DNA of 12,246 nucleotides from a virus (Duplodnaviria > Heunggongvirae > Uroviricota > Caudoviricetes): the IMG/VR virus record IMGVR_UViG_2548876950_000019, one strand, 5' to 3'. Positions 6,001-9,000 of the stretch are shown here, piece after piece (within the stretch, counting starts at the first letter, position 1; each line of letters opens with the position of its first letter). The position numbers are program-made.

Positions 6001-9000
6001 TTTAAAGCCTGTAAAACAAGACAATGGCTGCGCTCAAAAGCAGAACTGGCATACTTCTTCTACTCATGATATCCAGCCACAAACCTCTGTAGACCGCCAT
6101 CCGGCGGTCTTTTCATATCTATTCGCACCTTAAAGGTAATAAAAAACCAAATCTGGTTGATCTTTTTTTTGTGTCAGCACAAAATAACCGTAATCCCAAT
6201 ACTAATAACAGGGCTTACCATGGAAATCATTACACGTATTGATGCCGCAAAGCGCGGACTTAAACGCTACTACACCGGAAAATCATGTAAGCACGGACAT
6301 GACAGTGAACGCTGGGTTTACAACGGACACTGTGTTGAGTGCACCATGGAATCAAACCGTCGCATCAGGGCAGAGATTAAGCAGATCATGATTAATTCCT
6401 CCCCACAACATTCAAGCTGATAGCGGAGATTAATCATGAGCAGACATGCAACAGATTGGGCCTGGGAGACAGACCCAGGTAGCTCATCATTAAAGCTCAT
6501 ACTGCTCTCGATGGCTGACAGAGCCGATGAATATAACCTCTGCTACCCCAGCATAGAACGCCTCGTTAAAGACACTTGCCTGAATAAAAAAACCGTGCAG
6601 TCCGGGCTTATATCGCTCATGAAAATGGGGCTTATTTCAGATACCGGAGAGAGAAAGGGAGCGACGAAAAGAGTGCGGGTTTTCTCTCTTAATATAACCA
6701 AAAACGGGAACATTAAAGGCAACCGGGAAGGGTGTAATGAACCCGAAAACGGTAATGTTCCCGAAAACGGGAATATACCCAAAAACGGGATGTTGAATGA
6801 TCCCAAAAACGGGATGTTGAATGATCCCAAAAACGGGATCCAGAACCAGTCATATAACCAGTCATTTAACCAAGAGAGGGAGAGCAGGACAAAAACCGGG
6901 GATTCTGTGCCTCATGACCCCGGCGCAAACAACGCCGTGATGAATAACTTTGTTCCTCCTGGTGGGCCAGGGCAATTAGGCAAATTTGTCATGCATGAAC
7001 AATGGCAACCATCAGATGACTTTCTTCGGAAAAGCTCATTGCAGGGAATCTACCTGGACAGTCTGCCAACGGCACAGGAACTTGCAGAATTCAGAATTTA
7101 CTGGATGGCTGAGGGTAAGGCATACCATCAGGCACAGTGGGAGCAGAAGCTGGCAAGGCGGCTGCAGATTAGCAGACAGAAGCAATCAACATTACCTGAT
7201 AACAACGTTCCGCACTGGAACAGCCCTGAAGCGTGGGAGGATTTCTTGTGAACAACGTTTTTACCGCGATACAAAACCGTGACGGAGAAGCCCTTTCTCG
7301 CATGTCAGGTTATGAGCATCAGTACGTCAACAATGACAATGTGGTGAACATGTCAGCAGAGAGGCTTGTTGATGCCCTTTTCAAACAGCTGAAACAACTG
7401 TTTCCGGCGGCAGTGGTAACCAACCTGAAGACGCCAGAGCAGGAAGTCGCTGCAAAACAGCAGTGGATTGCTGCGTTTGCCGAAGGTGGGATCCGAACCC
7501 GTGAACAGGTTTCTGCTGGTATGCGCCACGCCCGCGCCAGTGAATCTCCGTTCTGGCCGTCGCCTGGGCAATTTATCAAGTGGTGCAAAGACAGCAAGAT
7601 GGTTCTTGGTGTCACCATTGACGATGTGATGGCGGAGTTTCACCGGTACAGCAAGGAAAAAAGTTTATATCCTGGCGGTCCCGAAAGATTCCCGTGGCGG
7701 CATCCGGTTATGTACTGGGTTGTATGTGATACCCGCCGCGCAATGTATCAGCGCCAGCTTAGCGAGATTGAGGTTGAGAAACACGCGCGCAGGTTGCTCG
7801 ATGATTGGGCGAAAAAGGTGGCTTCCGGACAGCAGATACCCGATCCGGTGATCAGCATACAGGCAAAGCCAGAACCCATGAGTACGCCTCCGGACACAGG
7901 GAGAGACGTTTACCACCCGCCAGGGCGAAGTTTCGGGTGCATGCCTAACGCCGCCACCCTGGGTGGAATAACACCGGCACAGTGGCTGATGGAGGAATAC
8001 AGGCGGGGAAAGGCGGCAGGATTTATCAAGTAATACCAGCGCGATAGCGCATTTTTTTACGTCTAGATGATTACCTGGTGGGTAATAAAATATACTAAAA
8101 TCTATTGATTTCGTGTCTTATGTGGTTTTTAATTACCTCGGGGGTAAATCATGAGAAAACAGATACAGGCTCTTGGTCGACTCAAAACAGGCCAGATGAA
8201 CAAAACAGAATCTGCGTATTGCCAGCACCTTGAGCAGCGTAAACGTGCAGGGGAAATCGCCTGGTATCGATTCGAGGGTCTCAAGCTGCGGTTAGCTGAC
8301 AACACGTTCTATACGCCCGATTTTGCTGTGATGCTCGCCACCGGCGAGATGGAACTGCACGAAGTGAAAGGTTTCTGGACCGACGACGCCAGGGTGAAAA
8401 CCAAAGTCGCCGCAGATCAATATCCGTTCCGAATCATCGGGGTAACGGTTAAACCAAAGAAAGCAGGTGGTGGCTGGAACATCGAAGAGTTCTGAATCGA
8501 CGATCTTTTTAGTTATCAATGTAATCAATAAGTTATGTGGATAAGCGAGGGTAAAGATGGAAAGTAATATCAAAGGGTTAGTTTCCGCCGGGCATGAGAT
8601 GGCTTCGGAACTGAAAGCAGAATGTGGTGCCGTTGATATGCGTAGTGTGGCAAAGCTGATCAGCGATTTGGCAACGCAACTGGAAGTGCAACTGGTGCGT
8701 GCTAATGCGCTGGCCGAAGACCAGCAGAAAGCGATTGAGTCAATTAAGCAGGCTGATGCAGCTGTTAAGTTGGCACACGAGAAGTTTTCAGCGCTGGCGG
8801 CGGAGAATGCGGGGCTGAAGTCTGGCGCTATGGACGAAATCAAGGTTATCAACCGTGGAGGGCAGGCATATTGCGTAAAAGATGGAGTGCAAGTCAATCC
8901 CATGTATGCAAGAGGGTGGAATGACTATCGCGCAAAGTCTCTGCAATCAGACACCCCAGCCACCGACGCTTTCCTGGCTGAAGTACGAGCGCAGGGCGTG

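What the first reader, a model, noticed from the sequence alone, without database searches (positions are those of the whole stretch)
6070..6219. Strong hairpin right after the Cro-like gene and an operator-like variant site, but no recognisable N/nut antitermination system
A perfect 8-bp GC-rich hairpin (6091-6110) sits at the lambda tR1-equivalent position. Downstream are a GCACC-TTAAA-GGTAA site (6125-6139, same variant as 5757-5771) and an 8-T run (6163-6170). I could not find a boxA-like sequence or an N-like Arg-rich protein, so how transcription reaches the replication genes is unclear.
Basis: seen in the sequence. Interest (0 to 1): 0.4.

Follow-up and report, generated by a model that had tools for sequence, protein, structure and literature searches.

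The report
Terminator followed by repressor-controlled restart promoter
The hairpin after the Cro-like gene of this phiV10/epsilon15-type prophage is an ordinary transcription terminator, and the "operator-like site" and T-run behind it belong to a conserved promoter that restarts transcription into the replication genes, so no lambda-style antitermination is needed.

Summary
The window is the early region of a Uetakevirus (97-98% identical to E. coli phage phiV10). The hairpin at 6091-6110 (8 bp, -15 kcal/mol, then TTTTCATATCT) is already annotated in phiV10 as a putative rho-independent terminator. I also found no N-like protein, boxA or Rfam antitermination RNA.

The puzzle probably has a simple answer. 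The sequence after the hairpin is a conserved sigma-70-type promoter: -35 TTGATC (6157-6162), 17 bp, -10 CAAAAT (6180-6185). Both hexamers are invariant or function-preserving in 19 diverged lineages and 46 IMG/VR relatives, while the spacer varies. The 8-T run is that spacer, not a terminator tail.

The site at 6125-6139 sits where the distal repressor operator sits in two paralogous cassettes (PL, and one after the replication genes). All three align collinearly as terminator, operator, -35, -10, operator. Epsilon15 carries 15 such operators dispersed over its genome.

So the phage most likely uses separate repressor-controlled transcription units, as P1 and N15 do, rather than read-through. 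No step has been shown experimentally. Interest is modest.

The parts
5839..6069 (+). Cro-like gene (76 aa, HTH). It is the only gene between PR (TTGTTA-17-TATTAT, 5785-5813) and the hairpin.
   Evidence: ORF list and translation. Matches PHROG 35 'transcriptional repressor', E 5.6e-13. Homologue of phiV10p41 and epsilon15 gp39.
6091..6110 (+). GC-rich hairpin (8 bp stem, 4-nt loop). Probable intrinsic terminator of the PR-cro transcript.
   Evidence: Annotated as a putative rho-independent terminator in phiV10 DQ126339.2 at 33078-33100. A 6-10 bp GC-rich hairpin is present at this place in all 19 lineages.
6111..6121 (+). U-rich tract TTTTCATATCT after the stem (4 consecutive U, 7 U in 11 nt).
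   Evidence: Conserved in the E. coli, Enterobacter, Pseudescherichia and Pseudocitrobacter lineages. Replaced by C/U-rich tails (TCCTTCCTGCAT, TCCTGCCTCTCCC) in the epsilon15 and Klebsiella lineages.
6125..6139 (.). Imperfect repressor operator GCACC-TTAAA-GGTAA. It is the distal operator of the post-cro promoter, centred about 60 bp upstream of the predicted start.
   Evidence: Right half GGTAA is invariant, and the left half (R/A)(Y)ACC is never the perfect TTACC in any lineage. It sits in the same position relative to -35 as the distal operators 5028-5042 and 8071-8085.
6145..6158 (.). AACCAAATCTGGTT, the conserved stretch just upstream of and overlapping the -35. It is not a supported RNA hairpin.
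   Evidence: CC and GG are invariant but the 'stem' does not covary (CCA/CGG, CCG/TGG). The fold of 6130-6180 is not better than shuffles, z = -0.6. It aligns with AACTCATATCTA of PL and ACTAAAATCTA of the post-P cassette.
6157..6162 (+). -35 hexamer TTGATC of the post-cro promoter. It contains a GATC Dam site.
   Evidence: GGTTGAT is invariant in 19 lineages. No polymorphism in 51 E. coli haplotypes. PWM rank 6 of 122,110 candidates in the window.
6163..6179 (+). 17-bp promoter spacer.
   Evidence: The sequence varies between lineages while the length stays 16-17 bp. In TL-2011b-type phages it is replaced by unrelated sequence directly after TTGATC.
6180..6185 (+). -10 hexamer CAAAAT. Predicted transcription start about 6191-6193.
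   Evidence: AAAAT is invariant in 19 lineages. xAAAAT is present at 16-17 bp in 45 of 46 homologous IMG/VR hits, and the exception (L205) has GAATAT at 17 bp.
6185..6199 (.). Degenerate proximal operator. Only the left half-site remains (TAACC here, TTACC in most lineages), in the same register as the proximal operators of PL and the post-P cassette.
   Evidence: BUCT554 keeps TTACC-GTAAT-AGTAA, 1 mismatch.
6220..6420 (+). First gene of the restarted unit (66 aa, Cys/His-rich, PHROG 1081, function unknown). It is followed by the DnaT-like initiator gene 6436-7251 and the lambda-P-like gene 7233-8033.
4966..5079 (-). Paralogous PL cassette: repressor-gene terminator 5079-5060, distal operator 5042-5028, -35 TTGACA 5008-5003, -10 AATTAT 4985-4980, proximal operator 4980-4966.
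8039..8147 (+). Paralogous cassette after the replication genes: hairpin GCGC-GATA-GCGC plus T7 (8039-8058), distal operator 8071-8085, -35 TTGATT 8105-8110, -10 TTTAAT 8128-8133, proximal operator 8133-8147, then the ATG at 8151.
   Evidence: The terminator is annotated in phiV10 and the distal operator is annotated as a repressor site in epsilon15.

Best explanation
The segment 6091-6199 is a 'stop and restart' cassette.

1. Transcription from PR makes the Cro-like mRNA and largely ends at the intrinsic terminator 6091-6121.
2. The replication operon (gp42-like gene, DnaT-like initiator, lambda-P-like loader) is transcribed from its own sigma-70 promoter directly downstream: -35 TTGATC 6157-6162, -10 CAAAAT 6180-6185, start about 6192.
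3. That promoter is flanked, as PL and the post-replication promoter are, by binding sites for the prophage repressor, a homologue of the SPC32H Rep tetramer. Here these are a weakened distal operator at 6125-6139 and a proximal half-site at 6185-6189.

The phage therefore reaches its replication genes by derepressing a separate promoter, not by N/nut-type antitermination.

Shown by computation: the sequence elements, their conservation and the three-fold paralogy. Inferred: termination efficiency, promoter activity, and Rep binding to the imperfect site.
For: - Hairpin strength and rarity. It is annotated as a terminator in phiV10.
- Paralogy: three cassettes align collinearly over about 120 bp (hairpin + T-run, operator, TTGA -35, -10, operator).
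- Promoter conservation: GGTTGAT and AAAAT are invariant in 19 diverged phage and prophage lineages, while the 16-17 bp spacer between them varies.
- The -10 is present in 45 of 46 homologous IMG/VR sequences. It is replaced by GAATAT, which keeps the critical A at position 2 and T at position 6, in the last one.
- No polymorphism in either hexamer among 51 E. coli haplotypes, although loop, spacer ends and operator centre vary.
- A crude sigma-70 PWM ranks the promoter 6th of 122,110 candidates in the window. PL ranks 2nd, PR 3rd and the post-P promoter 11th.
- The module junction in TL-2011b-type phages lies exactly after TTGATC, and the foreign sequence still supplies CAAAAT at 16 bp.
- The operator consensus TTACC-N5-GGTAA is shared by the whole genus, at the same positions in every genome.
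- Epsilon15 has 15 sites with at most 1 mismatch against 1.1 expected. They are dispersed in front of early and late genes, and several are annotated as repressor sites in GenBank.
- The repressor is homologous to SPC32H Rep, PDB 5D50, E 4e-42.
- No N-like protein, boxA or Rfam antitermination RNA was found.
Against: - There are no transcription data: no mapped 5' or 3' ends.
- The promoter is only 4/6 + 4/6 to consensus and lacks the T at -12, so it may be weak or need an activator.
- The distal operator has 2 mismatches and the proximal one is only a half-site, so Rep control is uncertain. A constitutive replication-gene promoter would be awkward for a prophage.
- In the epsilon15 and Klebsiella lineages the hairpin is conserved but has no U-tract. 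There, read-through from PR may be substantial, and the hairpin may serve another purpose.
- Conservation of GGTTGATC could partly reflect its use as a recombination junction.
- The papers most likely to hold experimental data (Kim & Ryu 2013; Kim et al. 2016; Kropinski et al. 2007) were not available.
Confidence: 0.6

Rival explanations
1. Leaky-terminator model. The hairpin is only a partial terminator or attenuator. The replication genes are expressed mainly by read-through from PR, with no auxiliary factor, and the conserved downstream sequence contributes little.
For: The U-tract is short (4 consecutive U). The epsilon15 and Klebsiella lineages have the hairpin without a U-tract, so read-through must be common there. 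The post-cro promoter is sub-consensus.
Against: This does not explain the invariance of TTGAT and AAAAT at fixed spacing with a variable spacer. It also does not explain the collinear paralogy with two bona fide operator/promoter cassettes.
Confidence: 0.2
2. Cryptic antitermination. An unrecognised phage factor lets PR transcripts pass the hairpin. Candidates are the AlpA-family protein at 2498-2746(-), the PerC/ANR-like activator at 2089-2388(-), or the small PL-operon proteins. This would be functionally equivalent to N.
For: An AlpA-family protein and a PerC-like 'transcriptional activator' are encoded in the leftward operon. From memory, Pseudomonas AlpA acts as a processive antiterminator. 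The hairpin sits at the tR1-like position.
Against: No nut, put or boxA-like element and no Rfam hit were found. The first PL-operon products are not Arg-rich. The AlpA homologue lies near int, where excisionase-type proteins usually lie. A dedicated promoter makes such a factor unnecessary.
Confidence: 0.08
3. The 6125-6139 site is not a promoter-associated operator. It is either a chance match or an auxiliary site used only for long-range looping with OR about 340 bp away, or as a roadblock to read-through.
For: A 2-mismatch match is not significant by itself. SPC32H Rep binds DNA as a tetramer that can engage two operators (PMC9638917).
Against: Chance is excluded by positional conservation with an invariant GGTAA in all lineages. 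The site lies 17 bp upstream of the -35 here, against 19 bp for the distal operators of the two full cassettes, so its position matches theirs to within 2 bp. Looping to OR is not excluded and could coexist with promoter-associated control.
Confidence: 0.12

Closest known systems
Intrinsic terminator annotated in phiV10 (DQ126339.2, 33078-33100) and the equivalent repressor-gene and post-replication terminators
   Same: It is the same element at 97-98% identity, with the same position after the cro-like gene.
   Different: Nothing differs. The hairpin itself is already in a public annotation, though only as a prediction.
Lambda tR1 / nutR / N antitermination
   Same: A terminator lies between cro and the replication genes of a temperate phage with divergent PRM/PR and PL.
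   Different: Lambda tR1 is Rho-dependent and is overridden by N acting at nutR (established knowledge). Here the terminator is hairpin + U type, there is no boxA, boxB or N, and a promoter follows the terminator.
Dispersed-operator immunity of phage P1 (C1 repressor with many operators at separate operons) and N15 (CB repressor sites also at the replication gene). Recalled from memory, not tested here.
   Same: One repressor with operators at several separate promoters, including the one for replication genes. Epsilon15 has 15 operator sites over its genome.
   Different: The repressor family is unrelated (SPC32H-type Rep). The operators come in pairs 62 bp apart bracketing the promoter, and each cassette is preceded by a terminator.
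SPC32H Rep/Ant switch (PDB 5D50/5D4Z; Kim et al. 2016, as summarised in PMC9638917)
   Same: The window's repressor is a homologue (E 4e-42). An AntA-type antirepressor gene is present at 11239-11862.
   Different: I could not read the primary papers, so I do not know whether the post-cro promoter or its imperfect operator were described there.

Membership tests
Intrinsic (Rho-independent) terminator | Stable GC-rich stem-loop in the RNA sense strand | tested here: met
   8 bp stem with 6 G/C pairs, 4-nt loop, -15 kcal/mol, z = -3.96. A hairpin is present in all 19 lineages.
Intrinsic (Rho-independent) terminator | U-rich tract immediately 3' of the stem | tested here: met
   UUUUCAUAUCU in the window. 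It is absent in the epsilon15 and Klebsiella lineages, so this feature is lineage-specific.
Intrinsic (Rho-independent) terminator | Location just downstream of a stop codon, with a U-tract on the coding strand only | tested here: met
   The stem starts 21 nt after the cro stop codon. The opposite strand has no T-run after the stem.
Intrinsic (Rho-independent) terminator | Transcripts actually end there | not testable with these tools
   No RNA data or in vitro assay is available.
Lambda-type N/nut antitermination | boxA (CGCTCTTTA-like) downstream of PR and PL | tested here: not met
   18 matches with at most 2 mismatches against 19.7 expected. None is well placed.
Lambda-type N/nut antitermination | boxB hairpin or another known antitermination RNA (nut, put) | tested here: not met
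   No Rfam match in 5800-6250 or downstream of PL at E <= 10. No significant structure in 6130-6180. This is limited to the families that Rfam holds.
Lambda-type N/nut antitermination | Small Arg-rich N-like protein as the first PL gene | tested here: not met
   The first two PL products (50 and 104 aa) are not Arg-rich and fall in PHROGs of unknown function.
Sigma-70 promoter | -35 and -10 hexamers at 16-18 bp spacing, with A at -11 and T at -7 | tested here: met
   TTGATC-17-CAAAAT (4/6 + 4/6). PWM rank 6 of 122,110. It fell below the 9/12 cut-off of the simple scan.
Sigma-70 promoter | Hexamers conserved while the spacer sequence drifts | tested here: met
Sigma-70 promoter | Mapped transcription start or reporter activity | not testable with these tools
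   No such data were found in the accessible literature.
Uetakevirus Rep operator (TTACC-N5-GGTAA) | 15-bp inverted repeat matching the consensus | tested here: inconclusive
   The right half is perfect. The left half is GCACC (2 mismatches), the same as OR2 at 5757-5771. The left half is imperfect in every lineage.
Uetakevirus Rep operator (TTACC-N5-GGTAA) | Conserved position relative to a promoter, as in the PL and post-P cassettes | tested here: met
   The site lies 17 bp upstream of the -35, against 19 bp in the two full cassettes. The three cassettes align collinearly.
Uetakevirus Rep operator (TTACC-N5-GGTAA) | Bound by Rep | not testable with these tools
   This needs EMSA or footprinting.

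The most novel reading that the evidence does not exclude
Uetakeviruses may run their whole lytic programme without any antitermination step. They would use a series of paralogous 'terminator, operator, promoter, operator' cassettes, each directly controlled by the tetrameric Rep. The replication-gene cassette would carry deliberately weakened operators: the distal left half is never perfect in any lineage, and the proximal site is reduced to a half-site. This would make replication genes the first to be switched on and the last to be shut off as Rep levels change. The -35 GATC Dam site might add coupling to replication.
Probability: 0.35. Interest if true: 0.45.

Novelty: new member of a known kind. 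Interest (0 to 1): 0.3.

Why it matters
It removes an apparent puzzle. These widespread E. coli, Salmonella and Klebsiella prophages (the phiV10, epsilon15 and SPC32H group) need not have a hidden N-like system. It also gives a concrete, testable map of the early transcription units: PR-cro; the post-cro promoter with gp42-O-P; and the post-P promoter with the downstream early genes. This map is useful for annotation, for engineering these phages as reporters or biocontrol agents, and for interpreting the Rep/Ant switch. The conserved imperfection of the replication-gene operator is a small open question about graded repression.

Tried and rejected
- Rfam scan of the whole window at E <= 10: nothing in the finding's region. 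The only real hit is sRNA-Xcc1 at 11111-11199.
- boxA search: at chance level.
- N-like protein: none.
- Second terminator made of AACCA/TGGTT plus the 8-T run: rejected. The fold is no better than shuffles, the stem does not covary, and the T-run starts 4 nt after the stem.
- Minus-strand promoter-like match at 6093-6066: not conserved in the relatives and not pursued.
- DnaA-box and IHF-site readings of TGGTTGATC with its T/A tract: only partial matches by eye, not supported.
- Covariation test of the hairpin with MAFFT and RNAalifold: uninformative, because the alignment misplaces the longer-loop lineages. Hairpin presence rests on the single-sequence folds.
- IMG/VR search with a Cro alignment: returned only sequences with 100% identical Cro. 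These were useful for micro-diversity but not for depth.
- Primary literature on SPC32H, epsilon15 and phiV10: not held. The ZX5 paper mentions four predicted promoters but gives no coordinates in the text.

Full report
**Identity of the window.** Bases 5000-7300 are 97.5-98.4% identical over their full length to Escherichia phages phiV10, PAS61 and phiv142-3 (genus Uetakevirus, epsilon15-like podoviruses). The gene order matches phiV10. The leftward side carries the integrase, methylase, a PerC-like protein, an AlpA-like protein, RecET and two small ORFs. The repressor gene is at 5684-5100 on the minus strand. The rightward side carries a Cro-like gene (5839-6069), a 66-aa gene (6220-6420), a DnaT-like initiator (6436-7251) and a lambda-P-like gene (7233-8033). 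The repressor is a homologue of SPC32H Rep (PDB 5D50, E 4e-42).

**The observation.**
- The hairpin AGACCGCC-ATCC-GGCGGTCT (6091-6110) is followed by TTTTCATATCT. It folds at -15 kcal/mol with z = -3.96.
- Perfect 8-bp GC-rich hairpins with a T-rich tail occur twice in the window, after cro and after the repressor gene. Dinucleotide shuffles give 0.037 per window.
- phiV10's GenBank record already labels this element a putative rho-independent terminator.
- The site GCACC-TTAAA-GGTAA (6125-6139) and the eight T at 6163-6170 are confirmed.

**Operators.** The palindrome TTACC-N5-GGTAA occurs at these places:
- 4966 and 5028: perfect, 62 bp apart, bracketing the PL promoter on the minus strand.
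- 5740, 5757 and 5788: the OR region.
- 6125: 2 mismatches.
- 8071 and 8133: perfect, again 62 bp apart, just after the P-like gene.

All nine other phages and nine prophages examined have the same consensus at the same relative positions. Epsilon15 as a whole has 15 sites with at most 1 mismatch, against 1.1 expected. These include sites before the terminase, gp3 and tailspike genes, and its GenBank record annotates several as repressor-binding sites. The post-cro site is not annotated there.

**What follows the hairpin.** I aligned the cro-to-next-gene spacer of 19 diverged lineages from E. coli, Enterobacter, Erwinia, Pseudescherichia, Pseudocitrobacter, Buttiauxella, Scandinavium, Kluyvera, Salmonella, Citrobacter and Klebsiella. 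Mean column identity is 62%. The alignment shows three invariant blocks:
- GGTAA, the right half of the operator-like site.
- GGTTGAT, which contains a -35-like TTGATC at 6157-6162.
- AAAAT, within the -10-like CAAAAT at 6180-6185.

The 16-17 bp between the two hexamers varies freely. In TL-2011b-type phages the homology with the window stops exactly after TTGATC, yet the unrelated sequence that follows again supplies CAAAAT 16 bp later.

A pattern scan of IMG/VR that did not include the -10 gave 46 homologous sequences. Of these, 45 have xAAAAT at 16-17 bp. The remaining one has GAATAT at 17 bp, which keeps the two critical -10 positions. Of the 59 unrelated (mostly protein-coding) matches, only one had xAAAAT at that spacing, consistent with chance.

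Among 51 E. coli haplotypes neither hexamer is polymorphic, while the hairpin loop, the operator's left half and centre, and the positions flanking the hexamers vary (Fisher p about 0.05, weak on its own). A crude sigma-70 weight matrix, with frequencies recalled from memory, ranks this promoter 6th of 122,110 candidates in the window. PL ranks 2nd, PR 3rd and the post-P promoter 11th.

**Three paralogous cassettes.** The minus strand of 4958-5084, the plus strand of 6086-6204 and the plus strand of 8036-8152 align collinearly with only small gaps. Each consists of:
- a hairpin plus T-run,
- about 15 nt,
- a distal operator,
- 17-19 nt ending in ATCT(A/G)(T/G),
- a TTGA-type -35,
- a 17-bp spacer,
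- a -10 whose last T is the first base of the proximal operator.

In the post-cro copy the distal operator has an imperfect left half. It is imperfect in every lineage (GCACC, GTACC, ACACC, ATACC, AGTCC and others), never TTACC. The proximal operator keeps only its left half-site: TAACC here, TTACC in most lineages.

**Mechanism proposed.**
- PR transcripts encode the Cro-like protein and largely stop at 6110-6120.
- The replication operon is transcribed from its own promoter about 50 bp downstream, starting near 6192.
- Rep binding at the flanking (weakened) operators keeps that promoter down in the lysogen.
- Antirepressor-mediated removal of Rep (an AntA-type gene is at 11239-11862) switches on PL, PR, this promoter and the post-P promoter in parallel.

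This makes an N/nut system unnecessary. I found none: no Rfam hit, boxA at chance level, and no Arg-rich first PL gene product. All functional steps are inferred from sequence and conservation.

**What does not fit neatly.**
- In the epsilon15/Salmonella/Citrobacter lineages and in the Klebsiella lineages the hairpin is conserved, but it is followed by UCCUUCCUGCAU or UCCUGCCUCUCCC rather than a U-tract. There it may terminate poorly, act with Rho (the tails are C-rich and G-poor), or stabilise the cro mRNA 3' end.
- The promoter is sub-consensus and might need an activator.
- How a promoter with such weak operators stays silent in a lysogen is open.
- The -35 hexamer contains a Dam site (GATC) in nearly all lineages. 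Its significance is unknown.

**Comparison and novelty.** The hairpin is already annotated. The organisation resembles the dispersed-operator immunity of P1 and N15 (from memory) rather than lambda. The post-cro promoter and its imperfect operator are not annotated in the phiV10, epsilon15 or SPC32H records. I could not read the primary papers, so prior description cannot be excluded. I rate this a new member of a known kind, of modest interest.

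Noticed in passing
window 10996-11240 (+): The strongest promoter-like site of the window (TTGACA-18-TATATT, 10996-11025) is followed by three elements. First comes a terminator-like hairpin, CCGCA-N11-TGCGG plus CTTTTTTAT, at about 11069-11098. Next is a full-length match to Rfam sRNA-Xcc1 (RF02221) at 11111-11199: 69.3 bits against a gathering score of 53, E 3e-11. Last is an AntA/P22-type antirepressor gene at 11239-11862. No LexA box lies nearby. This could be a structured leader or sRNA controlling the antirepressor.
   Followed up: partly
window 8071-8147: Two perfect repressor operators lie 62 bp apart and bracket a promoter (TTGATT-17-TTTAAT). The proximal operator contains the Shine-Dalgarno sequence of the next gene, whose ATG is at 8151, so the predicted leader is only about 11 nt. 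The same arrangement is present in nearly all the relatives whose locus reaches that region.
   Followed up: yes
L003 (epsilon15) 3968-3995 and relatives: In the epsilon15 group the proximal operator of the post-cro promoter looks split. TTACC-AAAGA is followed by a 13-bp insert, TAAATAACAAAGA, and then GGTAA. This looks like a short duplication that disrupted a once-perfect operator.
   Followed up: no
window 6157-6162 and L004 (TL-2011b) 3973-3978: The boundary between the shared immunity module and alternative replication modules lies exactly after the -35 hexamer TTGATC. The conserved promoter core appears to serve as a recombination junction between mosaic modules.
   Followed up: partly
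L222 (epsilon15 genome) 19850-19895: A LexA-box-like palindrome, TACTGTATAAACATACAGTA, lies directly upstream of the repressor operator at 19896. It falls between gp19 (minus strand) and the tailspike gene, and may be the SOS-controlled promoter of the antirepressor system described for SPC32H.
   Followed up: no
window 6220-6420: The first gene of the replication operon encodes a 66-aa Cys/His-rich protein (motif YTGKSCKHGH...GHCVEC). It belongs to PHROG 1081 and has no Pfam or NCBIfam family. It is conserved at this position in every relative. In TL-2011b it is present but not annotated.
   Followed up: partly
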